Virus record (IMG/VR): IMGVR_UViG_3300027704_003386
Direction: 5' to 3' (one strand)
DNA: 64,000 bases
Origin: an uncultured virus (IMG/VR IMGVR_UViG_3300027704_003386)
Lineage: Duplodnaviria > Heunggongvirae > Uroviricota > Caudoviricetes
The notes beneath the pieces were generated by a model that saw only the letters and a program-made list of their open reading frames with translations, did not search any database and was not told the origin of the DNA. The position numbers and the translations under genes were made by a program. Shown piece by piece: positions 19,214 to 33,342 of the stretch; position 1 is the stretch's first letter; every line of letters begins with the position of its first letter.

Positions 19214-20119
19214 TTATTGACGTAGAGTTTTTCTAATACAAAACATTGGGTTAGTAAAAAACTCTGGTATTAGCATTTGGTGGGTTGCTCTAATAGGGTT
19301 AATATCTATTCCTCCTCTGCGGGTATACAGACAAGCAACCATTAATTGTTCTGGTTTGAATCTTTCTGTTAAGTGAGAATAAATCATTTCGCATATCTCT
19401 TCATGAAAGTGACTTACTGTTCTATGACTAACTATGTATTTAGCAAGAGATTCTGCGGTAGGTACTTCATCTCCTTTGATAAAGATAAATATATCTCCCC
19501 AATCTGGTTGATCAGTTACTCTACAATTAGAACGTAATAAATTTGATCGAACCTTAAGTTCTCGAGCATCAATAGAACCTTCTAACTGATTAGCATCTGA
19601 TTTAAATGCTGTAAAATCGATTGCATCTAAATTAGCTAATTCTCCAATTTCTTCGAATTCTTCAGAAAAAGACAAGGTTTCCATTTCAAAATCAGAAGAA
19701 TAGAAACTAACTGTAGTTATAGTATCAAGTAGTTCATCTAAATCTCTCTTTATTCTTGCTTCAATTCCTGCGATGCAGTCTGCTGCATTGTCACCTATCT
19801 TAGTCATATTAAATGAATTAAGATAAAGTTTAATCGATTTAGACTCAACGTGGTTTTCACTATCAGCCGGACATACTATTTTAACCATACCGGCAACAGG
19901 TTGACCTTTTGTAGTAATAGCAGAAACTTCATAAGCATTCCATGTATCTACACCTACGAATTCCTTACCTGTTAATCCATATCCTTCTCGATTAAGATAT
20001 CTTGGTATCTTAACTAAAAGTTCTGGAGAGTAAGTATCTTTATAACCTGCTCCGCCTACAGTTCCTAAATGTTTGGATGCAATATCCTTTACTTGTTCGT
20101 AATTTTTAACTTCTGACAT
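19214..20119 (-). CDS. queF: 7-cyano-7-deazaguanine (preQ0) reductase, bimodular
   Basis: QueF motif ESKSIKLYLNSF, SNCRVTDQPDWG, FHEEICE and YTRRGGIDINP. Confidence 0.93.
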   Translation of the reverse strand: MSEVKNYEQVKDIASKHLGTVGGAGYKDTYSPELLVKIPRYLNREGYGLTGKEFVGVDTWNAYEVSAITTKGQPVAGMVKIVCPADSENHVESKSIKLYLNSFNMTKIGDNAADCIAGIEARIKRDLDELLDTITTVSFYSSDFEMETLSFSEEFEEIGELANLDAIDFTAFKSDANQLEGSIDARELKVRSNLLRSNCRVTDQPDWGDIFIFIKGDEVPTAESLAKYIVSHRTVSHFHEEICEMIYSHLTERFKPEQLMVACLYTRRGGIDINPIRATHQMLIPEFFTNPMFCIRKTLRQ

Positions 20120-20121
20120 AA

Positions 20122-20493
20122 TTATCCTTTAAATATTTGTTTTTTACCACCTTCGTATTGATAAGCGTGGCCATTCTCTACCAGTAGTTTATTTAATGAG
20201 GTTTCTTCTCCGTCGATATCAATAAAAATCTCAGCAAGTATTCGACCGTACTTCCCTTTACCGTAAGATTGAATAACAAACTTACCATCATTCATCTCCA
20301 TATATTTCTCAGTAAATTTAGAAGCTTCTATACCTTTAGCTTTCTCTTCTAAATTTCTAGTTCTCTTTTCCCAAGTATCAACTCCTTTAAATCTTAATCT
20401 GGCTCTAACCCAAGTATCAAATCCTAGATCGATCATTACATCTGCTGTATCACCATCAACTACTCTTAATAATTTTGCTCCGTATTTATACAT
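20122..20493 (-). CDS. thermonuclease (SNase-like)
   Basis: RVVDGDT, RLRFKGVDT.E, GKYGRILA and LVENGHA. Confidence 0.85.
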   Translation of the reverse strand: MYKYGAKLLRVVDGDTADVMIDLGFDTWVRARLRFKGVDTWEKRTRNLEEKAKGIEASKFTEKYMEMNDGKFVIQSYGKGKYGRILAEIFIDIDGEETSLNKLLVENGHAYQYEGGKKQIFKG

Positions 20494-21007
20494 TTATAAA
20501 ATTTAATATTTGCTCTACTCTTTGCATAGGAGAGCCAGTTATCGTCAAATAAGGTTGACGTACGTCTTCTAATACTGCTTTAAACTCTTCATCAATATCT
20601 ACTCTCCACTTTTCATTTATACTTCTAACTCCATCATCTACAGAATCAAATTCTATAGGAAAATAAATATAATGAGTATACTCGTTTTTAATCCTATTCC
20701 AAGTAGCATCTATATATTTCCACGTCTCTTCTGATACGTTATCCATAAATCTTGTATATACTACAACATCCATAAAGCATCTATCGAGTACTTGATTATA
20801 AGGTTGTAATAAAGCTTCTAAATGAAAACAACTAATAGCTAATTGAGTAGCATCAGTTCCTTTTTCATTGATAGGAAAACCATAAGAACCTACCGTTCTA
20901 GTAGATTCGTTAACAAAGTCGTACTTTGGTAATTTATTCTTTAGTAATTCATACACAGTAGTCTTACCTGTACTACTAGCTCCTACTAACGCAATTCTCT
21001 TTGTCAT
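20486..21007 (-). CDS. P-loop nucleotide kinase-like (NadR/AAA_28-type)
   Basis: GASSTGKTT, ESTR, LDRCFMD and DDGVR. Confidence 0.75.
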   Translation of the reverse strand: MTKRIALVGASSTGKTTVYELLKNKLPKYDFVNESTRTVGSYGFPINEKGTDATQLAISCFHLEALLQPYNQVLDRCFMDVVVYTRFMDNVSEETWKYIDATWNRIKNEYTHYIYFPIEFDSVDDGVRSINEKWRVDIDEEFKAVLEDVRQPYLTITGSPMQRVEQILNFINV

Positions 21008-21039: not shown

Positions 21040-21609
21040 TTATTTTTTATTACCGAATAATTCATTAGCAAATTCAATCCAAAGATATAGAGACCTATCT
21101 TTAAATACTTTCCACATCTCTTCTTCAGTTATACTAAATGCATTAAACCTAATTTCTTTTAGAACTTTTCCTTCATCTACTCCTTCTACTACTTTGTGTA
21201 TTACACATCCCATAACTTCATGCTTAGCTTCAAAAGCTCTAATTTGAGGATCCTTTCCTTTTAATTCTGGGTAGACAGTTATTAGTCCTGGATGACCGTT
21301 AAATATGTTGAAGCTTTGAGTAACTTCAGAAGGTAGAATTCTCAGCCAACCGTGTAATGTAATAATCGCATCTGGAAAATACTGAAGTACGTCTAGATAT
21401 TCATTCACTTTAGGTTTATTACTAAAGGTAAAATATCCTTTTTCTTCTATTCTAGGATCTATAGTTCTAGCATCATTAGGTCTCTCATTAGTAATAATAC
21501 GGGATGGCCACTTACCTGTGCTTTCAGCAAGATCAGCTATTTCTGCTCCTGTTTGAGAGAAAAAAGCAATCCAGGTTTGTTTGCCAGATTTAATTTTTAT
21601 ATCTTTCAT
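21040..21609 (-). CDS. PurN-like formyltransferase (probable DpdN-type preQ1 formyltransferase)
   Basis: FSQTG, GWLRIL, NGHPGL and HKVVEGVDEG formyltransferase motifs; coupled to the DpdA-like gene. Confidence 0.75.
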   Translation of the reverse strand: MKDIKIKSGKQTWIAFFSQTGAEIADLAESTGKWPSRIITNERPNDARTIDPRIEEKGYFTFSNKPKVNEYLDVLQYFPDAIITLHGWLRILPSEVTQSFNIFNGHPGLITVYPELKGKDPQIRAFEAKHEVMGCVIHKVVEGVDEGKVLKEIRFNAFSITEEEMWKVFKDRSLYLWIEFANELFGNKK

Positions 21610-22424
21610 ATTCCTGCTATAGGTGTTGATCCATTAACGAACCACCTAAATTTCTGTATATTATTTAATACGGTGGGTATTTCTATATCGTCAATATCTG
21701 TGTTAATAAGTTCGAATAACTTCTGCGATTCTTTACTCCATAAGCCATCAGATCCGTAAGTTATGTCTTTTAATCCGTGTACTACAGGATTTGAAGTATC
21801 TAAAGAGTATATCCAACTGTAGTCTAAATGTTTATAGTACGAAAATTCCTGGGGAAGTGAACATCCTAATAAGTGATGAGGTTTATCTTTATTAATAACA
21901 CCGTCTCTAAGTAAATCTCCAAGTAGCTTAACACGTCCTAGCATCCAACTAACGTATTTATTAGGATGAGGAAAAGACTCAGTATAATACGAATAATCAA
22001 AGGATATAGCAATCATATCACAAGGTGATAATTCATCTATAGCTTTATAACAGTCTTTAATTTCCTGATAAGTCTTACCTTGAACCACCCCTATACTCTT
22101 ACCCGGTACATTATTATACTTTTTAAACCAGCTAGCCATTTGCGACATAGTTTTTTCAGCATTTTCTAAAGCATCTGGTACTATATACCATGTAGGTTTA
22201 AGCAATTGTACCCAGTTAGAAAACTTATCAGCATCAAAGGCTTCTTCTAATTCAAAAATAGAGTTGTCTAATATTACTTCTCTTCCTTTTCTTACTGCTT
22301 TTTCAAACTGCCTTAAGTATTCTGGATCTTCTTCTAGTAAATGTACTAATGCATAGTCATAATCAGTTAGTCTTTGAACTTCATCAAAAATACTATTCGG
22401 AGATTCATGAGCAATCTTAATCAT
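21606..22424 (-). CDS. dpdA: TGT-fold 7-deazaguanine enzyme (DpdA/DpdA3-like)
   Basis: ILDNSIFE, IVPD, GVVQG, HLLG and SLDTS mirror TGT catalytic segments; lies inside the que locus. Confidence 0.7.
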   Translation of the reverse strand: MIKIAHESPNSIFDEVQRLTDYDYALVHLLEEDPEYLRQFEKAVRKGREVILDNSIFELEEAFDADKFSNWVQLLKPTWYIVPDALENAEKTMSQMASWFKKYNNVPGKSIGVVQGKTYQEIKDCYKAIDELSPCDMIAISFDYSYYTESFPHPNKYVSWMLGRVKLLGDLLRDGVINKDKPHHLLGCSLPQEFSYYKHLDYSWIYSLDTSNPVVHGLKDITYGSDGLWSKESQKLFELINTDIDDIEIPTVLNNIQKFRWFVNGSTPIAGI

Positions 22425-22602
22425 CTTTATTAATTTCCTTTAAAGCGTTATTTAATAATTCTATTGAGCTATCTACTTTTAAAGCAGCATTATTAAGCTT
22501 AGCAGTATAATTGCTTACTTCTTTAATAGCTTTTTCAGCTATTTCTACTGGGATCATTTCTACTCCTTCTACTACTACGATATTTTCTTTCCATGTATTC
22601 AT
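22417..22602 (-). CDS. hypothetical protein
   Basis: Coupled short ORF. Confidence 0.5.
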   Translation of the reverse strand: MNTWKENIVVVEGVEMIPVEIAEKAIKEVSNYTAKLNNAALKVDSSIELLNNALKEINKDD

Positions 22603-23171
22603 ATCCCTAAGTGTTGCTGTGGTCTAGTTTTAACAATTTCATCATCTGTAAAGAATTGTTTAAGGTCCGGTCTGAAGTAGTTAGTGCTTTTCATTACTTT
22701 TCTATCTCTAGTACGGTAGACAATATACCGTCCTTCCTCAATCTTTTCAAAATGACAGGCCTCACCTTGTTCCTTACTTCTTTGGCGGACGGTCTGTATG
22801 GCTTCTTTTTCAGTTTCACAAGCTTTTGACATATTAGAGGCTTGTACTTCTTGATATGCTGGCCATATCTTGTTCTTAAGGCCATGTAGCATAGTACCGT
22901 TCCCAAGGGAAACATAAGTAATATCGCACAAAGCATCCAAAATTTCCACAATGTCTCCTCTTTCGCAAGCTTCTTTATATTCTTGGAGCTCTTCAAGGAT
23001 AAAGTCGTAAACAAATCTCCATTCTTTTTCACTAGGGATAGTTGGTTCATAGTTATTAGGTTTGTTAAACGTTTTGTTAAACTCTTCTACTTCATCTACG
23101 AAAGGAACTCCGTTAACCCATACGGGTAATACTTTTTCTTCTACTTCAAATAATGATAGTTGCTCACCCAT
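22599..23171 (-). CDS. MazG-like/PRA-PH nucleoside triphosphate pyrophosphohydrolase
   Basis: EELQEY, EILDALCDITYV and EVQASNMSK. Confidence 0.8.
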   Translation of the reverse strand: MGEQLSLFEVEEKVLPVWVNGVPFVDEVEEFNKTFNKPNNYEPTIPSEKEWRFVYDFILEELQEYKEACERGDIVEILDALCDITYVSLGNGTMLHGLKNKIWPAYQEVQASNMSKACETEKEAIQTVRQRSKEQGEACHFEKIEEGRYIVYRTRDRKVMKSTNYFRPDLKQFFTDDEIVKTRPQQHLGI

Positions 23172-23172
23172 A

Positions 23173-23373
23173 TTAGATTACTTTTAAAATTCTTGATTCT
23201 GTAAGGCTTATGATTCTGAAATCTCTTTCTCCTTCGTTTTCTAAGTACTTATAAACTTTAGATTCAGCTTCAGTACCGCCCATAGCGTCAACCAAATAAA
23301 TTTCTTTTACTTTTTGAATACGACCTCTATCGTTTTCTCTTTCAAACTGGGTAGTAACTTGCCAATATGTCAT
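23173..23373 (-). CDS. DUF4494-like protein
   Basis: G.IQKVKEIYLVDA...TEAE resembles the Bacteroidota DUF4494 N-terminus (from recall). Confidence 0.55.
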   Translation of the reverse strand: MTYWQVTTQFERENDRGRIQKVKEIYLVDAMGGTEAESKVYKYLENEGERDFRIISLTESRILKVI

Positions 23374-23426: not shown

Positions 23427-23795
23427 CTATTCTCTATTATAGTCATCTTCATATCTGATTATGTCTGATTCATCAAATATACCTGCATTACTATGCTGCA
23501 CTTCAATAAAAATCATATCTTTGTTATCCTGTACGTTATTAATATTTCTTATTCTATGTTTAGCTCCTTCTGGTATATAAACAGTATTCTTCTCCGTCAA
23601 AACACTATCTGAGCCATCTAAAGTATATCCTGCCATTCCCTGTACTATAGTCCAAGTCTCTGATCTATGTTTATGAGATTGATAGGATAGTTGTCCGCCA
23701 GGTTTAACTGTAATCATTTTTACCTTACAAAAAGGACTATCAAGTAAAACTTGATACTCCCCCCAAGGTCTTATATCATGTTCTAATGTCTGCAT
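23427..23795 (-). CDS. mannose-6-phosphate isomerase type II cupin
   Basis: RPWGEY, LSYQSHKHRSETW, HRIRN, FIEVQ and DIIRYED. Confidence 0.85.
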   Translation of the reverse strand: MQTLEHDIRPWGEYQVLLDSPFCKVKMITVKPGGQLSYQSHKHRSETWTIVQGMAGYTLDGSDSVLTEKNTVYIPEGAKHRIRNINNVQDNKDMIFIEVQHSNAGIFDESDIIRYEDDYNRE

Positions 23796-24496
23796 ATACT
23801 TGCTAATTCTATATTCTTATAAAACTCTGCTTTTGCAGAATCCTCATCTAAAAATGCTCCTGTTAACTTAGCTGTCTGCATTGAAGCTCCTTGATGCTTT
23901 ACTCCTCTACAGCTTACACAGTTATGAGTAGCATTAATTTGAACTGCTACTCCTAAATTACCATCACAAATTTTATTAACAGCATTATGTATGGCAACTG
24001 TTAATTGTTCTTGAATGGCTCCTCTTCTTCCAAATTGTTCTACTATTCTATTTAATTTGGATAATCCAACAACCTTCCCAGACTCTGAAGCAATATAGGC
24101 TATGCTAACAGTCCCACCTATTGTTTGGTGGTGGTGACTACACATTGACGTTACAGGTATATTAGACTCTTGTACGATTCCGTCGTAGCCGTCGCTAGGG
24201 AATGCTGTAACTCGGTCTAAAGGTTCAAATCTACCTTTCCATAGATCATTAACGTATGCTTTAGCTACTCTCATAGGAGTATCAGAAGAGTTGGGATCGT
24301 TTTCCCAGTCAGTTCCAAGAGCGGTTAAGAAGTCACCAAATGCTGTTGCTGCATTAGTAATAATCTCTTGTTTCTCTTCTGATGATAACCTTGCTTCAGG
24401 TCCTTCGGTTAGTTGTTTCTTTGCTAATTGACTGGATATACCATTAGCGAATCCAGCTTGAACTAATTCTGTTCCTTCTATAAACTTCTTTGCCAT
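23783..24496 (-). CDS. folE: GTP cyclohydrolase I
   Basis: DTPMRVAKAY, SMCSHH, GLSKLNR, IQEQLT and HNCVSCRGV. Confidence 0.95.
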   Translation of the reverse strand: MAKKFIEGTELVQAGFANGISSQLAKKQLTEGPEARLSSEEKQEIITNAATAFGDFLTALGTDWENDPNSSDTPMRVAKAYVNDLWKGRFEPLDRVTAFPSDGYDGIVQESNIPVTSMCSHHHQTIGGTVSIAYIASESGKVVGLSKLNRIVEQFGRRGAIQEQLTVAIHNAVNKICDGNLGVAVQINATHNCVSCRGVKHQGASMQTAKLTGAFLDEDSAKAEFYKNIELASICRH

Positions 24497-24529: not shown

Positions 24530-24934
24530 TTATTTTGTAGTATCCAAATAACCTTGTATGGTTTTTGAATCTTTTTTTTCCCAAGGGTAAACTATCCATT
24601 CAGGTCCTATATGCTGTGCAAAATAATCTGGTTTAAATGTAGATTGTTTTTTATAATGAAGTGTTGCATATAAAGGTTGGGGGAACTTATACTGAAACTG
24701 TTTTAAAGTTTCTCCTGTATCAGCTATATCATCAAGTACTAATAGGCTTGGATAATGATTGCTTGGGTTTTCCATATACTCAATTCCGAACCTATGTGAG
24801 TAGAGTATTGCTAAAATCGTACCTCCTCTTGGTACTCCTGTAACGTATCCTACCTGTCCTTTTGTCTGTTGGTATATATTATCTAGAAGGGAGTTTATAT
24901 CTTCCCACGTTAAAAAAACTTTCTTTACGCTCAT
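24530..24934 (-). CDS. Gpt/Hpt-like purine phosphoribosyltransferase
   Basis: VPRGG, LVLDDIADTGETL, PDYF and WIVYPWE; start reassigned to ATG 24934, coupled to the upstream stop. Confidence 0.8.
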   Translation of the reverse strand: MSVKKVFLTWEDINSLLDNIYQQTKGQVGYVTGVPRGGTILAILYSHRFGIEYMENPSNHYPSLLVLDDIADTGETLKQFQYKFPQPLYATLHYKKQSTFKPDYFAQHIGPEWIVYPWEKKDSKTIQGYLDTTK

Positions 24935-25065
24935 ACAATATTTGTTGTCCAAAACTGGTTATCGATTATATAACTCTGATCTTTACTTTTCCAGTATAAT
25001 TCTCTTACTTTACTTCCTAATTCTTGATCGTTAGGATTTTCTTCTACTAATTTATTAAGGTTCAT
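24931..25065 (-). CDS. small hypothetical protein (44 aa), not in the ORF track
   Basis: MNLNKLVEENPNDQELGSKVRELYW...; its TGA overlaps the PRTase ATG. Confidence 0.6.
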   Translation of the reverse strand: MNLNKLVEENPNDQELGSKVRELYWKSKDQSYIIDNQFWTTNIV

Positions 25066-25366
25066 AATTTAATCCAAAAAATTTATAATTGTTTTTAACT
25101 GCTTCTAATTCTCCTGCTTCTATTGCATCTTCTTCTGTTTCGTATATAGCCTCAACTGGGCATTCTGGAATACAGGCTCCGCAATCTATACATTCGTCTG
25201 GGTTAATATATAGGCTTTTGCCTATCAATTGCTCTTTAGTCATATTCGCAACTTCTGCTCCTGCACCTTCAATATCTATAGGACCATGTATACAATCTAC
25301 AGGACAAACAGCAACACAAGCTGTATCACATGTACTAATACAGGGACTTCCTATAATGTAGCTCAT
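25055..25366 (-). CDS. dicluster ferredoxin
   Basis: CISTCDTACVAVCPVDCI and CIDCGACIPECPV. Confidence 0.92.
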   Translation of the reverse strand: MSYIIGSPCISTCDTACVAVCPVDCIHGPIDIEGAGAEVANMTKEQLIGKSLYINPDECIDCGACIPECPVEAIYETEEDAIEAGELEAVKNNYKFFGLNYEP

Positions 25367-27008: not shown

Positions 27009-27268
27009 ACTAATTCCTCTATTATACCAATTACTTCAGAAACAATTAAAACACTAGCTGCTGCTAATAAGTTAATAGGTATAAGTATATAACCAAATAT
27101 ACGAATTCCTGACTTAATAAACGACACTATCTGGTGTTTTTTTGCGTCTGGGTAGTTAATAAAGGAGTCTGGTAAAGGGTTTGAGTTTTGTCTGTTGAGT
27201 AGATACTCTTCGTTTGTAACTCTTCTTGACTCTACATCGTAGAGTTCTTTTTCAATTATACTATTCAT
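27005..27268 (-). CDS. small membrane protein, first gene of the que operon
   Basis: PDAKKHQIVSFIKSGIRI followed by hydrophobic helices ending EELV. Confidence 0.65.
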   Translation of the reverse strand: MNSIIEKELYDVESRRVTNEEYLLNRQNSNPLPDSFINYPDAKKHQIVSFIKSGIRIFGYILIPINLLAAASVLIVSEVIGIIEELV

Positions 27269-27366: not shown

Positions 27367-28260
27367 TTAATATAAAGCATTCCAAGTTGAACCGTTATAA
27401 AAATACGGTTTAATTGGACTACTTGATGATACTGCGAATGCTCCGGCTGCTAATCCTGCAGATGGAAGAGGATGTTGTGGCTGTAATGTTAATACGTTAG
27501 ATGCACTTACGAAAAGTGATGCTGATAGTGGGTATACAGCATTAATATGACCATTATCCTGTATAGTTAGTCTAACAGTTGATCCATATGCTCCTGTTTC
27601 TTGAGTTGCAAATGTTATCTTAGCTCCTGAAGAGCTTACTGCTGATTTTGTTACAGTTCCTGTAATTTGTACAGGTTCAGAATAATCTGTCCAAGTTAGA
27701 GCGTTACCTGTTCTTGTAGAACCTGAGTTTACTACTCTTCCTGCTATTCTAAATATATTATCGCCTACTAGTGCGGGTGATTCAGCTCCTGGTACACCTC
27801 TTGATTTTATAAATACAAAGTTTCCTGCTGACTGGTCAGTTGAAGCTTGGTCAATCCAAATCTCAGATCTATAATTTTTTAACCCAATTTTAGCCGGGTA
27901 CCAGTGATGTTGTCCTATCTCTACAGATCCTGTAATAGATAAACTACCTGTGTGGTTTATTTTTCCTCTAATTAACTGCTCACCTATAAACGTATTACTA
28001 CTAGTTAGTGCGTATTTCGCATTATTAACATAAGATGCGGTAGTTGCGGTAGTTGCTTTTGTAGATACAGATGATGATAGTGCAGTAACAATAGAAGTTA
28101 GCCCAGATCCGTCTCCAACAAATGATCCTGAGAATGATCCTGTAAGGTTATTGAAAGATGCAGAAAGTGCATTTCCAAGTCCATCTTCAAATCTATTATT
28201 AGTCCACTGTACTACTTTTCCGTAGGTATCCTTTATTTTACTTCCTGTTAAATTTGCCAT
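27367..28260 (-). CDS. virion structural / tail-fibre-like protein
   Basis: Gly/Ser/Thr-rich with GSFSGSFVGDGSGLT, MANLTG..IKDTY start and YNGSTW end. Confidence 0.6.
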   Translation of the reverse strand: MANLTGSKIKDTYGKVVQWTNNRFEDGLGNALSASFNNLTGSFSGSFVGDGSGLTSIVTALSSSVSTKATTATTASYVNNAKYALTSSNTFIGEQLIRGKINHTGSLSITGSVEIGQHHWYPAKIGLKNYRSEIWIDQASTDQSAGNFVFIKSRGVPGAESPALVGDNIFRIAGRVVNSGSTRTGNALTWTDYSEPVQITGTVTKSAVSSSGAKITFATQETGAYGSTVRLTIQDNGHINAVYPLSASLFVSASNVLTLQPQHPLPSAGLAAGAFAVSSSSPIKPYFYNGSTWNALY

Positions 28261-28286: not shown

Positions 28287-28403
28287 TTAAAAATTCTTAT
28301 AGGTGAAAGGATCTCTCTTTTTCATTTCAGCTATCCTTTTTTCAAAGTTCTTTTCTCTTTTTCTATTAGCAAAGTATGCTTTTATCTTCTGAATCAAGTT
28401 CAT
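28287..28403 (-). CDS. small basic protein (38 aa), not in the ORF track
   Basis: MNLIQKIKAYFANRKREKNFEKRIAEMKKRDPFTYKNF; KRDPFxY-type peptides often trail phage carbamoyltransferase loci (from recall). Confidence 0.55.
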   Translation of the reverse strand: MNLIQKIKAYFANRKREKNFEKRIAEMKKRDPFTYKNF

Positions 28404-29031
28404 ATATTTGTTTTTTAGTGAAAAACTTAGGTTTTATATTATTTAGTAGTAAAGAAAAAGCTATTCCCATACCTTCACCATTGCCCCTATGGTTATAAAT
28501 AGACTTCTCAAACATACTATTGTACTCTATTATAGGTTTAAGTACCTCTATATACTTAGTAACATTTCTCAACCTACTGTCGTAAGGGATGTAAAATACG
28601 GTTTCTAGTAATGGTCTTAATAAATTTATAGGGAAATCTGCAAGTTTTAAGTAGTCTGTTAATTTGTCCCAATAGGAACCATTTATATCTGTATCTTTCC
28701 ATATAGAATTGCCGTAGTCCCAGTACCCTACAAAACAATAATCGTCACTTCCTTTAAAATGCTGGTGGAAGTCTGGTGTCATTGCATGTATTTTATTAGC
28801 ATCAACAAAAAGTACTCCTTGTTTTTCTTTTAACGCTAATTGAAATGCATATATCAACTTATCGTAGTATGAAAATATAATATTATTATAGGTTGTAGTA
28901 TCGTATTCCTTGAACCGTTCGGGATCATCGGTTAACACTCTAATATCGTATATTTTTCTATCTAATATCTTTAATAGTTTTTCAGCTGATTCTGTATACG
29001 GTTTATTTATTGCAGTTGTAGCTAAAATCAT
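28366..29031 (-). CDS. glycosyltransferase-like hypothetical protein
   Basis: VLTDDPERF, DKL and VLFVDAN resemble a GT-A fold. Confidence 0.4.
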   Translation of the reverse strand: MILATTAINKPYTESAEKLLKILDRKIYDIRVLTDDPERFKEYDTTTYNNIIFSYYDKLIYAFQLALKEKQGVLFVDANKIHAMTPDFHQHFKGSDDYCFVGYWDYGNSIWKDTDINGSYWDKLTDYLKLADFPINLLRPLLETVFYIPYDSRLRNVTKYIEVLKPIIEYNSMFEKSIYNHRGNGEGMGIAFSLLLNNIKPKFFTKKQIYELDSEDKSILC

Positions 29032-30689
29032 GTTTTTCTGATTAAAAAGTTACCTATAACTAAAAAATTAATTTTAGAAGATATAAACCTCTCTATTGCC
29101 TGTTTTGGAGTCATCGTAATAGTTTGGTCTTTTAGGTTAAAAGATGTATTAAGTACTACTGCTTTATTTGATAACCTACCTACTTGTTTAATAAGGTCAT
29201 AATATCTTTTATTTTGAGCTTGTGTTACAGTGTGTACTCTACAGCTACCGTCTATATGTGTTGCTGCAGGTAGGTATTTAGTTTTAGCTTGTACTACTTG
29301 ATTCATATAGGGAATATTCTCTTTCACGTGGAACCACATGGAGGCCTCTTCCTCTATAACAGACGGAGCAAAGGGTCTAAATCCTTCTCGTTCTTTAATA
29401 ATAAGGTTGAGTCTTTGTCTCATTTCTGGATCTGATGGAGAGGCTAGGATACTTCTATTACCTAAAGCTCTAGCTCCAAATTCCATTCTACCTTGGAACC
29501 ATGCTACTATATTTTGATTATTAATTAACTCAGCAGTTTTTTGAATTAATTTTGAATCAGATAGTTTAAATGCCTGAATATGCTCTTTATAGTTCTGTAT
29601 CTCTTTGGAAATTTCTTTATTACTGTATTCTGGTCCTAAGAATGGATTTGAATTTTCTTCCCTTTTTAACTCCGTTGAAATATTACTAAAGCAAGCTCCA
29701 ATTGCTGATCCAGCATCTGATGGAGCATTAGGGATATGGATAGACTTAAAGTACTTATAAGCAAGTGTATTAGCTACACCATTATACGCACAGCCTCCTC
29801 CTAAACATAAGTTATTTGATTTAGTTAAGTATTTTGTTCTTTCTACAAGTTTTAAAAACTGTATCTCATATATTTTTTGTAATGCTGCTGCTAAATCTTT
29901 ATGTTCTTGAGTAACTTTTTCTTCAGGTAATCTAGGAGGTAGATCTAAAAGTGAAGCTAGTTTTTTATTAAACATAATTTTATCTGAGTATTCCCATGTA
30001 AAGTACTTCTGTTTAATATAGAATTTATTAGTAGTATTTTCAAATACACTAGCTAACTTCTCTTTATACCTGCTTGGGTCTCCATAAGGTGCTAATCCCA
30101 TAACTTTATACTCGCCTTCATTAGGTTTAAAGCCTAGAAACGAAGTAATAGTTGAGTAAAACATACCTAGTGAATTAGGGAAATCAATTGAAACTTTCTT
30201 TTCTATTCTATTACCTATACCTAATGATACAGTAGCTGTTTCCCATTCTCCTACTCCATCAATAGTTAAAATTGCTGAATCAATATAAGGAGAGGTATAG
30301 TAACTATAAGCAGCATGAGAAGCATGGTGAGGAGTATATACAATCTCTCCGGTGAATCCCATATTCTGTAAAAGCAACTTAATATCGTGTATTTTTTGCT
30401 CTTTAAGAAACTTTCGTCTTTGAAAATACGTCCTAAAAAATTTCTTATTAAACGTAGTAAGTACTCTATCTTTTTTAATAATTGGGTCTTCATACCAGCA
30501 TACTTGATCTATATCTTTTATGGTTAGTCCTTCTTCTTCTAAACAGAAGTTTATAGCATTAATTGGGAAAGATAAGTCATGTTTAATTTCAGTAAATCTT
30601 TCTTCCTCTACTGCTACTTTGACTTTTCCGTCAATTAGTATACAAGCTGCAGCGTCGTGATAAAATGCGGATATTCCTAATTGCTTCAT
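29028..30689 (-). CDS. carbamoyltransferase (NodU/CmcH family)
   Basis: HDAAAC, EEERF, HHASHAAY, DGVGE, EYKVMGLAPYG, EFGARALGNRS, RPFAP and LNTSFN. Confidence 0.95.
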   Translation of the reverse strand: MKQLGISAFYHDAAACILIDGKVKVAVEEERFTEIKHDLSFPINAINFCLEEEGLTIKDIDQVCWYEDPIIKKDRVLTTFNKKFFRTYFQRRKFLKEQKIHDIKLLLQNMGFTGEIVYTPHHASHAAYSYYTSPYIDSAILTIDGVGEWETATVSLGIGNRIEKKVSIDFPNSLGMFYSTITSFLGFKPNEGEYKVMGLAPYGDPSRYKEKLASVFENTTNKFYIKQKYFTWEYSDKIMFNKKLASLLDLPPRLPEEKVTQEHKDLAAALQKIYEIQFLKLVERTKYLTKSNNLCLGGGCAYNGVANTLAYKYFKSIHIPNAPSDAGSAIGACFSNISTELKREENSNPFLGPEYSNKEISKEIQNYKEHIQAFKLSDSKLIQKTAELINNQNIVAWFQGRMEFGARALGNRSILASPSDPEMRQRLNLIIKEREGFRPFAPSVIEEEASMWFHVKENIPYMNQVVQAKTKYLPAATHIDGSCRVHTVTQAQNKRYYDLIKQVGRLSNKAVVLNTSFNLKDQTITMTPKQAIERFISSKINFLVIGNFLIRKT

Positions 30690-31729
30690 AACAGTTCTGA
30701 GAAATTATTGTGAACTTTATCTTGTGGTAAAATTCTTTTTATAGTATTAACGAAATCTTCATGGTTTCTATGGGAAGTATCAAATATATTATGCTCTTTA
30801 AATTCTTCTTCACTAAAAGTACCCCAATTAATAAGTCTACTAAAGTAAATATCCGATTTTTCTTTACATATACCAACTATTAGCTCAATAAAGTCTTCCA
30901 TTTCATGATAATTACTATTTTGCACAACAAAAGAGGTTTTTATATGTTTTAAGGTAGGAATGGTGTATATATAGTTTAAATTACTTATAAGTTCTTTCCA
31001 TTTTCCTCCTAACCTTACTTTATTTTCATAAGTATTTTGAGTAGCTGCATCAATTGATACCTCAGTGCTCTTTACGTATTCATGTACGTTAGACATACTA
31101 TTCCACATTTTTTTATTCCACTTAGTAGCGTTAGTATGAAGGTGTATCCAGTAGAGATTTGGATACTTACTTTTATCGAAGTTCTTTAAGAAGTTTCTAA
31201 ATCCTACTGATACGAAAGGATCACCGGTTCCTGTTAAAGACAGTAGTTGTACGTACTCTCCTAAACTCTCTTCTATCTCTTCTATAGTCTTTTGTACTTT
31301 AGTTATAGTTGACTTATTAGCAGTAATAATTTCCACTCTGCAGGTAGGGCATTTTAAATTGCAGGTATAATCAAAGGAATATTGAACCGTATTAGGGTAT
31401 ATAGGTTTACCTTGTTTATAGTCGTTAATTGTATTTTGTAAAGTATCAGGTAGCTTCCCTCTGTCTACCATTGGACGGATCACTTTAGGTGCAGTTTTGT
31501 CTCTTAAGCCGGAAAGTAGTGAACAAAGATTTTCATCACAGTACCTATAAGAACCATCGAGAATAGAATCTCGAATTTCATTCGCTTCTTTAGAGTTCCA
31601 AGCTTCTAATGGTGATATGTTTTCTGGTAATTTTTTGCTAACCCAAGCAGGGCAACATAAAAAACTTGTTTTATCATGGACTTCTAAATTTACGAAAGGA
31701 TTTGCACATATATAATCCTTTTTATTCAT
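30686..31729 (-). CDS. radical SAM protein with N-terminal SPASM/twitch-like Cys domain
   Basis: CNLKCPTC, GTGDPF and HTN; N-terminal C.NPF...CC...W..C...C. Confidence 0.85.
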   Translation of the reverse strand: MNKKDYICANPFVNLEVHDKTSFLCCPAWVSKKLPENISPLEAWNSKEANEIRDSILDGSYRYCDENLCSLLSGLRDKTAPKVIRPMVDRGKLPDTLQNTINDYKQGKPIYPNTVQYSFDYTCNLKCPTCRVEIITANKSTITKVQKTIEEIEESLGEYVQLLSLTGTGDPFVSVGFRNFLKNFDKSKYPNLYWIHLHTNATKWNKKMWNSMSNVHEYVKSTEVSIDAATQNTYENKVRLGGKWKELISNLNYIYTIPTLKHIKTSFVVQNSNYHEMEDFIELIVGICKEKSDIYFSRLINWGTFSEEEFKEHNIFDTSHRNHEDFVNTIKRILPQDKVHNNFSELL

Positions 31730-32498
31730 GTATAAAGTATAAATCTTTACTTATAAATAACTTTATATAGTCATTTAAATCTTTTTGTTTAAAATGAGTT
31801 TCAAATTTTGCGTTAGATACTAAAGGCTCATACTTCTTAATATAAGCCTCTAGCGTTGTACCTTGATTTAAAAAATAATGCATTACAGGCGTTTCATCGC
31901 TTACTATTTCAATATCTTCTTCTTGATTTATTCTAATAAATTCCTCAGCTATGCTTAGATCTGAGCAGTATACAAAGGATGTGTTAGGAACTACTACGTT
32001 GTTTGCCCATTGCCAATTATATTTCTGGAGTACAGATTGGTGTTTATGTAAGTATTTTATATCTTCCCTGCTTATATCTTTCCATTCTTTAAGAACATAC
32101 TCTTCGTAGTTATTAGGAAAACAATAAAGAGGTATTTGAAGTTTACTGTTTTGCTCTTCTAACCTACTATAAAAATTAAAATCAAGTGGTTTCTGTTGGT
32201 AAATATCCCAGTCAAGAAATATAATTTGTTCGTATAGCTCTACTCCAGTCTTTATAGCTACAAGCTTATGCAGGAAAAAAGTATGTGATTCATAGAAGTA
32301 GTGTGTTCCGTACTCATAAGGATCTTTAGACATTAATATAGCTTCATACCCAAAAGATTTAATAAAATCATAATTGCTTTCGCCCCATACGAACACTACT
32401 TCATCAAATCTTTGTTCTTTAGAGCATCTTATAATTTCTTTTCTTGGTTTACTATCATGATGTTCTAAATCTCCCCATAGGGCTCTAATAAATTTCAT
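31722..32498 (-). CDS. glycosyltransferase-like hypothetical protein
   Basis: HKL...IIFLDWD (DxD) and PNTSF. Confidence 0.45.
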   Translation of the reverse strand: MKFIRALWGDLEHHDSKPRKEIIRCSKEQRFDEVVFVWGESNYDFIKSFGYEAILMSKDPYEYGTHYFYESHTFFLHKLVAIKTGVELYEQIIFLDWDIYQQKPLDFNFYSRLEEQNSKLQIPLYCFPNNYEEYVLKEWKDISREDIKYLHKHQSVLQKYNWQWANNVVVPNTSFVYCSDLSIAEEFIRINQEEDIEIVSDETPVMHYFLNQGTTLEAYIKKYEPLVSNAKFETHFKQKDLNDYIKLFISKDLYFIHE

Positions 32499-32526
32499 AT
32501 GATAGATTTAAGTATTTCCCAATAAT

Positions 32527-33342
32527 TTAAGAATAACCTAATTCTGCAGCAGTACTGTAGTCGACTAGTATTTTTTCTACATGTGCTTTCGCAACATTAT
32601 AATCAACCGGTCCAGTTTCGTTCTCGTACTGTACAGGGTCATCCACACCGAGTGCGATAAAAGCTTCAATCCTTTCAACAGATGATGCTGATTTGTAATC
32701 GCTATTACCGCTAGGATAGGGCTTATAAGAAGTATTAGTACGTTTGTACACTTCATTAAAAACAATTCCGAGCTCTTCAACCAATTGTTGTCCATCTTTT
32801 AATATTCCAAATTTGTCTGTTTCTAAATAAGGTGTAAAATACCCTACCTTATCTGCTTCCCAATTACCTAATCTAAAGGCATTGTCATCTGCATCTCTAA
32901 ACTCTTGTCTACAGTCTGGATATACTGCATGATCACCTGCATGTATACCTAATGCAATATCTGTATTATTACCATTAGCCATTGCTTCTGATAGAGCTAC
33001 TGCTTGTACTAACGAAGCAAATATTTTGTTTCTATTAGGTACTACTGTAGCTTTCATGTTATCCTGTTCATAATGACCTTCAGGTACATCTGCTCCTCCT
33101 TCAGTAAGTGCTGAATTTAGTAAGTTTACTAATCCGTCTAGTTTAATTACCTGGTACTTGATACCAAAATCTTTCTCATTTAGGTAATCTACTAACGATT
33201 GTGCTCTTTCAAGCTCTACTTTATGCTTTTGACCGTAATCGAAAGATATTGCAGTTACATTGTCATACTCTGATAAACATCTGAGTAGTAAAGTAGAGGA
33301 ATCCATCCCTCCCGATAAGGATATTACAACATTTTTTGCCAT
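32527..33342 (-). CDS. queC: 7-cyano-7-deazaguanine synthase
   Basis: SLSGGMDS, FDYGQKH..E, TVVPNRN.IF and HAGDHAVYPDCR. Confidence 0.93.
   Translation of the reverse strand: MAKNVVISLSGGMDSSTLLLRCLSEYDNVTAISFDYGQKHKVELERAQSLVDYLNEKDFGIKYQVIKLDGLVNLLNSALTEGGADVPEGHYEQDNMKATVVPNRNKIFASLVQAVALSEAMANGNNTDIALGIHAGDHAVYPDCRQEFRDADDNAFRLGNWEADKVGYFTPYLETDKFGILKDGQQLVEELGIVFNEVYKRTNTSYKPYPSGNSDYKSASSVERIEAFIALGVDDPVQYENETGPVDYNVAKAHVEKILVDYSTAAELGYS

What the first reader, a model, noticed from the sequence alone, without database searches (positions are those of the whole stretch)
19214..33342. Complete 7-deazaguanine DNA-modification locus that looks built for pre-replicative replacement of dG by a formylated preQ1
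Seen: folE, queD, queE, queC and queF, plus a divergent TGT-fold protein coupled to a PurN-like formyltransferase. Interleaved with them are a Gpt-like phosphoribosyltransferase, a P-loop nucleotide kinase, a MazG-like pyrophosphatase, a nuclease and a ferredoxin; a class I RNR lies just upstream. Established: FolE-QueD-QueE-QueC make preQ0 and QueF makes preQ1, and phage DpdA/DpdN-type enzymes are linked to formyl-preQ1 in DNA of a Flavobacterium myovirus (recalled; verify). Inference: PRTase or the DpdA-like enzyme makes the modified nucleotide, the kinase and RNR raise it to a dNTP, and the MazG-like enzyme removes dGTP. That would be a nucleotide-pool route rather than post-replicative base exchange, with candidate enzymes for steps I believe are unassigned.
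Basis: partly seen in the sequence, partly recalled or inferred. Interest (0 to 1): 0.85.

Follow-up and report, generated by a model that had tools for sequence, protein, structure and literature searches.

The report
Phage formyl-preQ1 guanine-replacement gene module
An uncultured relative of Flavobacterium phage immuto carries the known gene set for replacing the guanine in its DNA with a formylated 7-deazaguanine, and the company these genes keep suggests, without proving, that the new base is built on free nucleotides before DNA is copied.

Summary
Window 19214-33342 (all on the minus strand) encodes QueF, FolE, QueD, QueE and QueC. It also encodes a TGT-fold protein (DpdA3) overlapping a PurN-like formyltransferase (DpdN), a P-loop kinase, a MazG-like pyrophosphatase, a Gpt-like phosphoribosyltransferase (PRT), an SNase nuclease and a ferredoxin. 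RNR and PolA flank the region.

The core is orthologous (42-80% aa) and syntenic with Flavobacterium phage immuto_2-6A, whose DNA is fully fdPreQ1-substituted (Cui et al. 2023). The locus is therefore a new member of a known system.

The pre-replicative idea gains independent support. In five further phage groups, DpdA3 or a distant DpdA3-like protein sits beside, or is fused to, a nucleotide kinase of varying family: AAA_28, phrog_761, T4 gp1-like DNMK and T7 gp1.7-like DUF3310. Three of them also keep a dNTP-hydrolase-type gene (HD or Dcd/dUTPase-like). A DpdA1 control had none in 0 of 17 loci.

PRT is missing from four other DpdA3 phage genomes and fits guanine salvage better.

This scan reached the same pre-replicative reading on at least eight other genomes. 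I found no paper stating it. Nothing here is biochemically shown.

The parts
32527..33342 (-). QueC, 7-cyano-7-deazaguanine (preQ0) synthase
   Evidence: PF06508 6.5e-40; TIGR00364 9e-41. 66% aa identity to immuto QueC.
31722..32498 (-). 258-aa GT-A/GT8-like predicted glycosyltransferase. First gene of an inserted sugar-tailoring cassette.
   Evidence: No Pfam, PHROG or NCBIfam hit. AF2 pLDDT 95.1. Foldseek PDB top hits are XXYLT1 and glycogenin, E 5e-6 to 1e-4, TM about 0.5. D96-W97-D98 is invariant in 19 homologues. Found in 0 of 80 related loci at E<=1e-5; one chance-level phmmer hit at E 0.0038.
30686..31729 (-). 347-aa radical SAM protein, twitch-domain type
   Evidence: Radical_SAM 4e-6 and Fer4_12. 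NF033640 9e-21, below its cut-off. Present in 3 of 80 related loci. Overlaps both neighbouring genes.
29028..30689 (-). NodU/CmcH-type carbamoyltransferase
   Evidence: Carbam_trans_N 2e-61 and Carbam_trans_C 9e-61. phrog_1601 2e-112. Present between queC and queD in 20 of 80 related loci.
28366..29031 (-). 221-aa ORF with no family
   Evidence: No hits. Only one near-identical cluster among 5.8 billion proteins.
27367..28260 (-). 297-aa ORF with no family
   Evidence: No hits. Homologues are about 450 aa and carry no Pfam domain. Weak matches to the ORFs that follow the carbamoyltransferase in L077 and L031.
27005..27268 (-). 87-aa conserved small ORF upstream of queD
   Evidence: Present in 44 of 80 related loci. 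No family.
26384..26887 (-). QueD, 6-carboxytetrahydropterin synthase
   Evidence: PTPS 9e-15; phrog_2389 1e-40. 72% identity to immuto.
25618..26397 (-). QueE, radical SAM 7-carboxy-7-deazaguanine synthase
   Evidence: phrog_2076 7e-48; TIGR03365 7e-14. 80% identity to immuto.
25363..25599 (-). DUF6952 protein
   Evidence: PF22264 2.5e-20. Present in 2 of 80 loci.
25055..25366 (-). FdxA-type ferredoxin. Inferred electron donor for QueE or the other radical SAM enzyme.
   Evidence: Fer4 families; NF045480 5e-20. Lies directly after queE in 21-24 of 80 loci.
24530..24952 (-). Gpt-like purine phosphoribosyltransferase. Inferred to salvage guanine to GMP.
   Evidence: NF006613 3e-9. PDB purine PRTases 1vdm 2e-7 and 4trb 4e-7, with the PRPP motif aligned. 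This type is in 59 of 80 loci and a different PRT type in 11 of 80, never both.
23783..24496 (-). FolE, GTP cyclohydrolase I
   Evidence: PF01227 4e-42. 80% identity to immuto.
23427..23795 (-). ManC C-terminal-type cupin
   Evidence: PF01050 8.5e-26. Present in 18 of 80 loci. Absent from the fetched 27.8-kb immuto stretch L001; the rest of that record was not searched with it.
23173..23373 (-). DUF4494 small protein
   Evidence: PF14902 1.5e-10. Present in immuto and in 35 of 80 loci.
22599..23171 (-). MazG-like all-alpha NTP pyrophosphohydrolase. Inferred to convert dGTP to dGMP.
   Evidence: PRA-PH 4.6e-11; phrog_671 3e-30. Within 3 kb of DpdA3 in 57 of 58 fully flanked loci.
22417..22602 (-). 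61-aa ORF between the MazG-like gene and DpdA3
   Evidence: phmmer matches in 20 of 80 loci. No family.
21606..22424 (-). DpdA3, a TGT-fold guanine/7-deazaguanine transglycosylase
   Evidence: 74% identity to immuto 'DNA guanine transglycosylase'. AF2 pLDDT 96.5. TGT fold at Z 18. D53 and D209 are conserved and align to the DSG and D264 motifs.
21040..21609 (-). DpdN, PurN-like formyltransferase
   Evidence: PF00551 8e-12. 47% identity to immuto DpdN. hhalign to E. coli PurN gives prob 96%, E 2e-9, with N104/H106/D145 on the PurN catalytic positions. Fused to DpdA3 in P0045 and P0123.
20486..21007 (-). AAA_28 P-loop nucleoside/nucleotide kinase
   Evidence: PF13521 2e-16; phrog_2107 3e-23. Walker A GASSTGKTT. 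30% identity, E 2e-13, to CP220 gp057 next to that phage's DpdA3. Present in 58 of 58 flanked loci.
20122..20493 (-). Staphylococcal-nuclease-type nuclease
   Evidence: PF00565 2e-10; phrog_452 7e-40. SNase is in 14 of 80 loci and Endonuclease_NS in 45 of 80, never both.
19214..20119 (-). QueF, bimodular preQ0 reductase (preQ0 to preQ1)
   Evidence: QueF_N 1e-28 and QueF 4e-18; TIGR03138 6e-69. 62% identity to immuto.
15018..17420 (-). Family A DNA polymerase with 3'-5' exonuclease (context)
   Evidence: PF00476 6e-54. 65% identity to immuto PolA. Downstream of the module in 66 of 80 loci.
34705..37406 (-). Class I ribonucleotide reductase NrdA and NrdB (context). A thioredoxin lies at 33705-33965.
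   Evidence: PF02867 5e-99; PF00268 7.5e-64; PF00085 4e-16.

Best explanation
This is the guanine-replacement module of an uncultured 177-kb myophage related to Flavobacterium phage vB_FspM_immuto.

Proposed pathway:
1. [quoted passage not shown] The ferredoxin is the likely reductant for the radical SAM step.
2. The MazG-like enzyme turns dGTP into dGMP. This keeps dG out of phage DNA and supplies the acceptor.
3. DpdA3 swaps guanine for preQ1 on a free deoxynucleotide or deoxynucleoside, not on finished DNA as the 2023 paper proposes.
4. DpdN, coupled to DpdA3, formylates the aminomethyl group.
5. The AAA_28 kinase phosphorylates the product. Host NDK and the adjacent phage PolA complete incorporation.
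6. The Gpt-like PRT recycles the released guanine to GMP, and so to GTP for FolE.

What is shown: gene identities, orthology with immuto, the TGT fold of DpdA3, the PurN catalytic triad in DpdN, and the co-occurrence and fusion statistics.

What is inferred: every substrate assignment, and the timing of the exchange relative to replication.

My odds: about 0.9 that this is an fdPreQ1-type replacement module. About 0.5 that the exchange happens in the nucleotide pool.
For: Identity of the module:
- Eleven core proteins match immuto at 42-80% aa identity in the same order.
- Immuto DNA holds fdPreQ1 and no dG peak (Table 1 and Figure 2 legend passages).

Linkage within the immuto-like group:
- In 58 IMG/VR loci with at least 3 kb on both sides, the kinase lies within 3 kb of DpdA3 in 58 of 58, the MazG-like gene in 57 of 58 and DpdN in 55 of 58.
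- Counting only the 43 distinct DpdA3 sequences, the figures are 43 of 43, 42 of 43 and 40 of 43.

The same linkage with other enzyme families in other phage groups:
- Campylobacter phage CP220: HD phosphohydrolase plus AAA_33, then DpdA3, then an AAA_28 kinase.
- Aeromonas phage Ahp1 and 21 related loci: DpdA3 is followed by DUF3310 (15 loci) or DNMK (2 loci), so 17 of 21 have a kinase. A Dcd/dUTPase-like gene follows in 18 of 21.
- Rhizobium phage RHph_I1_18: DpdA3 is fused to a DUF3310 domain and followed by a Dcd/dUTPase-like gene.
- Representative P0150: DpdA3 fused to a phrog_236 'nucleotide kinase' domain, E 1e-10.
- T7 gp1.7 is DUF3310. It phosphorylates dTMP and dGMP (passage).
- Bacillus and Weizmannia phages: a distant DpdA3-like protein (24% identity) preceded by a P-loop phrog_761 'thymidylate kinase' and overlapping PolA.

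Control: 0 of 17 DpdA1 (9g-like) loci have any of these kinase or NTPase types within 3 kb.

Coupling of DpdA3 and DpdN: DpdA3-DpdN fusions P0045 and P0123. DpdN keeps the catalytic triad of PurN, an enzyme that acts on a 5'-phosphoribosyl amine (the substrate is recalled).

From the paper (sections read):
- Only DpdA3 phages show complete replacement.
- DpdA3 expressed alone or with DpdL in E. coli gave no modification.
- The ADG nucleoside was seen in the cytoplasm of CP220-infected cells.
Against: - No TGT-family enzyme is known to use a mononucleotide. All characterised members act on tRNA or DNA (recalled).
- The published view is post-replicative (abstract and discussion).
- Gene linkage inside the nucleotide-metabolism and replication region of large phages can arise without a shared pathway. 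Within one group it is inherited rather than independent.
- The control is mostly one subfamily (Queuovirinae) plus three more distant loci.
- A kinase and a PRT could equally serve a guanine-to-GTP recycling loop under a post-replicative model.
- 3 of 21 Ahp1-like loci with enough downstream DNA showed no recognisable kinase.
- The AAA_28 family also contains a nucleoside kinase (the NadR domain; weaker NadR-type hits), so the phosphorylation state of the DpdA3 substrate is open.
- Alignments of DpdA3 to TGT and DpdA1 are weak at sequence level: hhalign probabilities 7% and 2.6%.
- No sequence feature tested here distinguishes a DNA substrate from a nucleotide substrate.
Confidence: 0.5

Rival explanations
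1. The published model. DNA is replicated with dGTP, and DpdA3 then exchanges every guanine in the DNA for preQ1. DpdN formylates either the free base or the base in DNA. The kinase, PRT and MazG-like enzyme are supporting nucleotide metabolism: PRT plus kinase recycle the excised guanine to GTP for FolE, and the MazG-like enzyme does house-cleaning.
For: - DpdA3 has the TGT fold and both catalytic aspartates.
- Characterised relatives such as bacterial DpdA (7ui4, 'DNA-guanine transglycosylase') act on polynucleotides (mechanism recalled).
- PRT lies next to folE and is replaced by another PRT type at the same site, which fits a recycling loop.
- The module sits in a general replication and nucleotide region with RNR, PolA, helicase and thioredoxin.
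Against: - A dGTP-hydrolysing enzyme would work against replication with dGTP.
- The kinases next to or fused with DpdA3 in the Ahp1-like and Rhizobium phage groups belong to deoxynucleotide kinase families (DNMK, DUF3310/gp1.7), not to GMP kinases.
- Complete replacement is seen only with DpdA3. Other DpdA subfamilies reach 0.1-30%.
- DpdA3 gave no DNA modification in E. coli.
- The DpdA1 control loci lack these neighbours, 0 of 17.
Confidence: 0.35
2. The Gpt-like PRT joins preQ0 or preQ1 to PRPP to give a ribonucleotide. The kinase raises it to the diphosphate, class I RNR reduces it, and NDK makes the dNTP. DpdA3 would be redundant or have another role.
For: - An intact purine PRT with a PRPP motif sits inside the cluster.
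- RNR and thioredoxin are adjacent.
- A PRT that couples a 7-deazaguanine base to PRPP has a precedent in tubercidin biosynthesis (abstract of PMC6112128 in the listing, and recall).
Against: - PF00156 was found in only 1 of 5 DpdA3 phage records. It is absent from CP220, which replaces all its G, and from the Ahp1, BSTP12 and Youna2 records.
- Among 21 Ahp1-like loci, a PRT lies within 3 kb in 6.
- DpdA3, not PRT, is the universal and fused partner of the kinases.
- The kinases of the Ahp1-like and Rhizobium phage groups are deoxy-specific families.
Confidence: 0.07
3. The TGT-like protein and the que genes serve queuosine-type tRNA modification (of host or phage tRNAs) rather than DNA modification.
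For: The closest solved folds are tRNA-guanine transglycosylases.
Against: - The orthologous module in immuto goes with complete fdPreQ1 substitution of DNA.
- DpdA3 is only 12-15% identical to TGT and has no conserved cysteines for the TGT zinc site (the motif is recalled).
- It is coupled or fused to a formyltransferase and to nucleotide kinases.
Confidence: 0.02

Closest known systems
[quoted passage not shown]
   Same: Same eleven core genes in the same order: QueF, kinase, DpdN, DpdA3, MazG-like, DUF4494, FolE, PRT, QueE and QueD, with QueC further upstream and PolA downstream. Amino-acid identity is 42-80%.
   Different: - DNA identity is only about 79% over 6% of the region.
- Extra genes here: SNase, cupin, ferredoxin, DUF6952 and the cassette of GT8-like protein, radical SAM protein, carbamoyltransferase and three unknown ORFs. 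None matched the fetched 27.8-kb immuto stretch.
- The interval between queC and queD holds unrelated cargo in immuto.
- The paper's main text does not mention the kinase or the PRT: 0 occurrences of 'kinase' and 'phosphoribosyl'.
T4-type pre-replicative base replacement (dCTPase gp56, dCMP hydroxymethylase gp42, dNMP kinase gp1) and the Z-genome set (MazZ, PurZ, DatZ)
   Same: The logic is the same: a (d)NTP hydrolase that excludes the normal nucleotide and supplies the monophosphate, an enzyme that alters the monophosphate, and a dedicated kinase. Some DpdA3 groups use the very families involved, namely T4 gp1-like DNMK and MazG-like enzymes. The roles of the T4 and Z-genome enzymes are recalled.
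   Different: The central enzyme here would be a TGT-fold base-exchange enzyme, not a thymidylate-synthase-like or PurA-like enzyme. No activity has been shown.
tRNA-guanine transglycosylase (TGT) and bacterial/phage DpdA1 and DpdA2 DNA transglycosylases
   Same: TIM-barrel TGT fold (Z 18). LDNS/DSG-type and SxDTSNP/DxxD-type aspartates align. Base exchange with a 7-deazaguanine is expected.
   Different: - 272 aa, against 375 for E. coli TGT and 317 for 9g DpdA1.
- Only 232-236 of about 326 spanned TGT residues align.
- No conserved cysteines.
- No Pfam TGT hit. The profile against PDB reaches only E 0.21, to DpdA 7ui4.
- Different gene neighbours.
dDG system of Cellulophaga phage phiST and dADG system of Campylobacter phage CP220 (both DpdA3)
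   Same: DpdA3 lies next to NTP-hydrolase and P-loop genes. In CP220: HD plus AAA_33, then DpdA3, then AAA_28. In phiST: CGPG_00068 (MazG/dUTPase by the paper's HHpred), DpdL, CGPG_00066 and DpdA3.
   Different: They stop the pathway at CDG (no QueF; phiST also has no QueC) and lack DpdN. I called phiST CGPG_00066 a P-loop protein only by eye from a Walker A motif. The PDB search gave nothing significant.

Membership tests
immuto-type fdPreQ1 DNA modification system | [quoted passage not shown] | tested here: met
   All five have family hits and 62-80% identity to immuto.
immuto-type fdPreQ1 DNA modification system | A DpdA3-subfamily transglycosylase | tested here: met
   74% identity over 265 aa to the immuto protein that the paper lists as DpdA3. 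phrog_19058 1e-52, the same PHROG as CP220 DpdA3.
immuto-type fdPreQ1 DNA modification system | A DpdN formyltransferase next to DpdA3 | tested here: met
   47% identity to immuto DpdN. PF00551. PurN triad N104/H106/D145. 4-nt overlap with DpdA3.
immuto-type fdPreQ1 DNA modification system | Virion DNA carries fdPreQ1 in place of dG | not testable with these tools
   The virus is uncultured and known from an IMG/VR record. This needs LC-MS/MS.
TGT/DpdA superfamily (for the 272-aa protein) | TGT-type (beta/alpha)8 barrel | tested here: met
   AF2 pLDDT 96.5. Foldseek to TGT, E 2e-7. VIA Z 17.4-18.0, rmsd 3.0-3.5 A, 230-236 residues aligned.
TGT/DpdA superfamily (for the 272-aa protein) | Two catalytic aspartates (E. 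coli TGT D89 and D264; numbering recalled) | tested here: met
   D53 is invariant and D209 at least 90% conserved in 126 sequences. D209 aligns to the D of the TGT 'IDMFDC' stretch. D53 aligns to the 9g DpdA1 'LDSG'. Both alignments are weak.
TGT/DpdA superfamily (for the 272-aa protein) | C-terminal zinc site (CxCxxC...H; recalled) | tested here: not met
   No cysteine is among the invariant or at-least-90% columns of A1.
TGT/DpdA superfamily (for the 272-aa protein) | Acts on a polynucleotide (tRNA or DNA) | not testable with these tools
   This is the open question. The paper reports failed assays for DpdA3.
T4-like pre-replicative replacement pathway | A phage NTP pyrophosphatase or hydrolase linked to the modifying enzyme | tested here: met
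   MazG-like gene in 57 of 58 loci. HD in CP220. Dcd/dUTPase-like gene in 18 of 21 Ahp1-like loci and in RHph_I1_18. Specificity for dGTP was not tested.
T4-like pre-replicative replacement pathway | A dedicated nucleotide kinase linked to the modifying enzyme | tested here: met
   58 of 58 and 17 of 21 loci, fusions in RHph_I1_18 and P0150, and 0 of 17 in the DpdA1 control. Substrate not tested.
T4-like pre-replicative replacement pathway | The modifying enzyme acts on a free nucleotide and the polymerase uses the modified dNTP | not testable with these tools
   Needs enzyme assays and pool measurements.
PurN/GAR formyltransferase family (DpdN) | Asn-His-Asp catalytic triad and the formyl-THF-binding fold | tested here: met
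   hhalign to E. coli PurN residues 70-165, probability 96%, E 2e-9: NGHPGL aligns to NIHPSL and GVDEG to ELDGG. The N-terminal substrate loop did not align.
Type I purine phosphoribosyltransferases (Gpt-like) | PRPP-binding acidic loop followed by T-G | tested here: met
   LVLDDIADTGET aligns to VVIVDDVSDTGKT of 1vdm. Base specificity not tested.
GT8-type GT-A glycosyltransferases (258-aa protein) | GT-A fold with a DxD metal/nucleotide-sugar motif | tested here: met
   Foldseek to glycogenin and XXYLT1, E 5e-6 to 1e-4, TM about 0.5. D96-W97-D98 invariant. No sequence-family hit. The Atlas gives only a 20%-share GT8 lead.

The most novel reading that the evidence does not exclude
DpdA3 is not a DNA transglycosylase. 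It is a nucleotide (or nucleoside) base-exchange enzyme that converts dGMP, dG or dGTP plus a 7-deazaguanine into the modified deoxynucleotide. Every fully 7-deazaguanine-substituted phage genome (dDG, dADG, fdPreQ1) would then be made pre-replicatively by a hydrolase, exchange-enzyme and kinase set analogous to the T4 hmC pathway. In this phage DpdN would formylate at the nucleotide level. The glycosyltransferase, radical SAM and carbamoyltransferase cassette embedded between queC and queD might decorate the base further; I rate that last part at about 0.15 or less on its own.
Probability: 0.45. Interest if true: 0.85.

Novelty: new member of a known kind. Interest (0 to 1): 0.6.

Why it matters
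Complete replacement of guanine by 7-deazaguanines is the only known wholesale base replacement in phage DNA for which the literature proposes a post-replicative mechanism. The responsible enzyme, DpdA3, has never been shown active.

If the kinase and NTP-hydrolase genes that travel with DpdA3, or are fused to it, mark a nucleotide-pool route, three things follow:
- The TGT fold gains a new substrate class.
- The published mechanism for dDG, dADG and fdPreQ1 genomes needs revision.
- A compact gene set would be available for making 7-substituted 7-deaza-dGTPs and fully substituted DNA enzymatically.

The question can be tested directly with the cultured phage immuto, or with recombinant proteins from this module.

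The locus itself is ordinary in that its core is orthologous to a characterised system.

Tried and rejected
**Searches that gave nothing useful**
- PDB sequence searches with the MazG-like protein and the kinase gave nothing significant; best E-values were 0.27 and 0.73.
- phiST CGPG_00066 and CGPG_00068 likewise; best E-values were 0.56 and 0.056. My P-loop call for CGPG_00066 therefore rests on a Walker A motif read by eye.
- The profile of 126 DpdA3 sequences against PDB reached only E 0.21, to DpdA 7ui4.
- hhalign to single TGT and DpdA1 sequences gave low probabilities of 7% and 2.6%. The fold assignment rests on structure comparison.
- An IMG/VR scan with the Bacillus phage DpdA3-like protein found no relatives. 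The CP220 scan returned only the three isolates plus two weak hits.
- The 221-aa and 297-aa ORFs stayed without a family after Pfam, PHROGs, NCBIfam and the 5.8-billion-protein search.

**Readings considered and set aside**
- I considered the cassette between queC and queD as a further tailoring step on the base, and rate that low. In immuto the same interval holds about 11 kb of unrelated cargo. Among 80 related loci, the carbamoyltransferase is in 20, the radical SAM protein in 3 and the GT8-like protein in 0 at E<=1e-5. DpdN would already block the only amine.
- I considered SNase as the source of 5'-dGMP. SNase-type nucleases give 3'-phosphates (recalled), so that link is weak.

**Not run**
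- Complex prediction, the look-up of sequencing runs and read laying. None would separate the two main models.

**Limits**

**Literature**
- Nine paper searches found no paper describing a nucleotide-level DpdA3 route.
- The library lacks most subscription journals, and bioRxiv supplements are closed.

Full report
**What is there**

The window is part of a 177,020-base virus record rated complete. G+C is 30-36% throughout. Between 15 kb and 37.4 kb every long ORF lies on the minus strand, with gaps of 0-124 nt or short overlaps.

Pfam, PHROGs and NCBIfam give this order in the direction of transcription:

1. NrdB, NrdA, a 177-aa ORF, thioredoxin, a 100-aa ORF.
2. QueC.
3. A 258-aa ORF, a radical SAM protein, a carbamoyltransferase, and ORFs of 221, 297, 87 and 54 aa.
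4. QueD, QueE, DUF6952, ferredoxin.
5. A Gpt-like PRT, FolE, a cupin, DUF4494.
6. A MazG-like protein, a 61-aa ORF, the 272-aa protein, the formyltransferase, the AAA_28 kinase, SNase, QueF.
7. A short nucleotide-sugar dehydrogenase, two small ORFs, PolA.

**Identity**

Megablast found only Flavobacterium phage vB_FspM_immuto: 4 records, 79% identity over 6% of the query. The immuto record has the same order: QueF, kinase, formyltransferase, 'DNA guanine transglycosylase', NTP pyrophosphohydrolase, DUF4494, FolE, PRT, QueE and QueD, with QueC 11 kb upstream and PolA downstream.

Eleven window proteins of the module match it at 42-80% aa identity; PolA (65%) and the small h89 ORF (56%) match too.

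From Cui, Hutinet et al. 2023 (PMC10516641) I read passages, sections 16 and 21, and sheet DS1 of the supplement. The paper reports:
- Immuto DNA has 345,000 fdPreQ1 per 10^6 nucleotides, no detectable dPreQ1 (Table 1) and no dG peak (Figure 2 legend).
- The transglycosylase is named DpdA3 and the formyltransferase DpdN.
- DpdA3 phages (CP220, phiST, immuto) are the only fully substituted ones.
- All these modifications are proposed to be post-replicative.
- Attempts to test DpdA3 in E. coli failed.

The main text has no occurrence of 'kinase' or 'phosphoribosyl'. It mentions a MazG/dUTPase only for phiST CGPG_00068.

The locus is thus a new member of a known system.

**The 272-aa protein**

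It has no Pfam or NCBIfam hit. A search of 1.84 billion representatives gave 1,540 relatives at E<=1e-3 and 288 at E<=1e-30.

An alignment of 126 of them has D53 invariant and D209 conserved in at least 90%. No cysteine is conserved.

The AF2 model (pLDDT 96.5) matches tRNA-guanine transglycosylases:
- Foldseek E 2e-7, TM about 0.6, 12% identity.
- VIA Z 17.4-18.0, 230-236 residues aligned.

Weak profile alignments place GVVQG, KPHHLLG and D209 on the E. coli TGT motifs, and D53 on the LDSG of 9g DpdA1.

It is a stripped-down TGT barrel. It keeps the catalytic aspartates but lacks the conserved cysteines of the TGT zinc site (that motif is recalled).

**DpdN**

A profile of 44 DpdN sequences aligns to E. 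coli PurN residues 70-165 with probability 96% and E 2e-9. N104, H106 and D145 fall on the PurN catalytic positions.

Two representatives, P0045 and P0123 (447 aa each), are DpdA3-DpdN fusions. In the window the two genes overlap by 4 nt. They very likely act in consecutive steps.

**Evidence on timing**

*Immuto-like group.* 120 of 125 IMG/VR candidate stretches encode a relative, and the best 80 loci were kept, at 62-78% DpdA3 identity.
- 58 loci have at least 3 kb on both sides.
- The kinase lies within 3 kb of DpdA3 in 58 of 58, the MazG-like gene in 57 of 58 and DpdN in 55 of 58.
- For the 43 distinct DpdA3 sequences the figures are 43 of 43, 42 of 43 and 40 of 43.
- This is one viral group, so the linkage is largely inherited.

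*Other groups.* These carry more weight.
- **Campylobacter phage CP220** (DpdA3 41% identical). The gene is flanked by an HD phosphohydrolase fused to an AAA_33 kinase domain and by an AAA_28 kinase. That kinase is 30% identical to the window kinase, E 2e-13.
- **Aeromonas phage Ahp1 and 21 related IMG/VR loci.** DpdA3 is followed by a DUF3310 protein (15 loci) or a T4 gp1-like DNMK (2 loci), so 17 of 21 have a kinase. A Dcd/dUTPase-like gene follows in 18 of 21. Of the four without a kinase, one ends 67 nt after DpdA3.
- **Rhizobium phage RHph_I1_18.** DpdA3 carries a C-terminal DUF3310 domain (24.2 bits, cut-off 24) and is followed by a Dcd/dUTPase-like gene.
- **Representative P0150.** DpdA3 is joined to a phrog_236 'nucleotide kinase' domain, E 1e-10.
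- **Bacillus and Weizmannia phages.** A distant DpdA3-like protein (24% identity) is preceded by a P-loop phrog_761 'thymidylate kinase' and overlaps PolA.

T7 gp1.7, annotated 'nucleotide kinase', is itself DUF3310 at 4.5e-23. It phosphorylates dTMP and dGMP (passage in PMC11897194).

*Control.* 17 loci around DpdA1 (phage 9g type; three of them only 40-49% identical) showed none of these kinase or hydrolase types within 3 kb, 0 of 17.

*Reading.* Replacement of the partner by a different enzyme family, together with domain fusion, is what a shared pathway predicts. The logic mirrors the T4 set of dCTPase, dCMP hydroxymethylase and dNMP kinase, and the Z-genome set of MazZ, PurZ and DatZ (both recalled).

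**What this does not show**

- No sequence feature tested here distinguishes a nucleotide substrate from a DNA substrate.
- A kinase plus a PRT would also fit a guanine-to-GTP recycling loop under the published model.
- Large phages cluster nucleotide genes anyway.
- AAA_28 also covers a nucleoside kinase (the NadR domain; weaker NadR-type hits). HD hydrolases can release nucleosides (recalled). The acceptor could therefore be dG, dGMP or dGTP.

I put the pool route at about 0.5 and the published route at about 0.35.

The PRT is a complete Gpt-like enzyme with the PRPP loop. PF00156 was found in only 1 of 5 DpdA3 phage records, immuto. It was not found in CP220, Ahp1, BSTP12 or Youna2.

In the immuto-like group the window type occurs in 59 of 80 loci and a second, unrelated-looking PRT in 11 of 80. 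They never occur together. In the three second-type loci examined (L049, L052, L069) that PRT sits directly upstream of folE.

That placement suits recycling of the released guanine into the GTP that FolE consumes. It suits less well the making of the modified nucleotide. The RNR is an ordinary nrdAB pair with thioredoxin.

A nuclease is also a regular but replaceable member: SNase in 14 of 80 loci, Endonuclease_NS in 45 of 80, never both.

QueC is followed by four genes with overlapping ends and two more ORFs:
- A 258-aa protein.
- A twitch-type radical SAM protein.
- A NodU/CmcH carbamoyltransferase.
- A 221-aa ORF.
- After a gap of about 100 nt, ORFs of 297 aa and then 87 aa.

The 258-aa protein has no sequence family. 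Its AF2 model (pLDDT 95.1) matches GT8 glycosyltransferases (glycogenin, XXYLT1) at E 5e-6 to 1e-4, TM about 0.5. A D-W-D triplet is invariant in 19 homologues.

This looks like a cassette for making or attaching a carbamoylated sugar. Its target is unknown.

I see three reasons to doubt a link to the base:
- The interval between queC and queD is a variable cargo site in relatives.
- Among 80 related loci, only 20 have the carbamoyltransferase, 3 the radical SAM protein and 0 the GT8-like protein at E<=1e-5.
- DpdN would already cap the aminomethyl group.

Earlier notes of this scan describe sugar-tailoring genes inside other deazaguanine operons, so I leave it as an open lead.

**Earlier findings of this scan**

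The same pre-replicative reading was reached on at least eight other genomes. A near-identical region was followed up on another record. These are unchecked AI notes. My counts were made independently, before I looked at them.

Nine literature searches found no paper proposing a nucleotide-level DpdA3 route. The library omits most subscription journals.

**Verdict**

- The locus is a new member of the immuto-type fdPreQ1 system.
- Its value lies in sharpening a testable challenge to the published mechanism, and in a so-far unexplained sugar-tailoring insert.

Noticed in passing
window 8698-10666 (-): Three overlapping genes: SAM synthetase (three MetK domains), a PNP_UDP_1 phosphorylase/nucleosidase-like protein and a second PRT (PF00156 7e-14). 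Together they look like a SAM supply and 5'-deoxyadenosine/adenine salvage set for the phage's several radical SAM enzymes.
   Followed up: partly
window 57329-63548 (-): A 1178-aa B12-binding radical SAM protein, an Asp/Asn beta-hydroxylase-like protein, a 343-aa ORF and another radical SAM protein lie just beyond the tail sheath and tube genes. Earlier scan notes describe tailoring islands next to tail-sheath genes in other large phages.
   Followed up: no
window 18386-19210 (-): A nucleotide-sugar dehydrogenase of only 274 aa. The N-terminal GxGxxG and the central domain are present, but the C-terminal domain of the roughly 390-440-aa family is missing. Found in none of the 80 related loci at E<=1e-5.
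   Followed up: partly
L059, L066, L067 (about 6.9-8.8 kb in L067); L009 and L011 (6123-7079 in L009): Immuto-like relatives without DpdN. One set has a 508-aa protein with a GNAT domain (2.8e-11) plus a glyoxalase-fold protein. The other has an AAA_28 kinase with a weak C-terminal GNAT match (E 0.0023). In both cases the genes sit between DpdA3 and QueF. This predicts an acyl group other than formyl on preQ1.
   Followed up: partly
proteins P0005, P0006, P0091: Other DpdA3 fusions. P0005 carries a homing endonuclease (phrog_314 8e-32). P0006 has an unknown 317-aa N-terminal extension. P0091 has a 160-aa C-terminal extension that looks GNAT-like by eye only.
   Followed up: partly
L107:4661-5170 and five other Ahp1-like loci: A peptide deformylase gene (5.7e-35) lies about 1.5 kb downstream of DpdA3 in 6 of 21 Ahp1-like loci.
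   Followed up: no
window 12055-14721 (-): An Hc1 histone-like protein, GroEL, GroES and an Hsp20 lie just before PolA. Immuto also has GroEL and GroES there.
   Followed up: no
L049:1487-4823 and L052:5894-7380: In the more distant immuto-like loci the interval between queE and folE holds sugar genes: RmlD-like, C-methyltransferase, GT2 and DUF6445, along with ThyA or ThyX, Endonuclease_NS and a 4HBT thioesterase.
   Followed up: no
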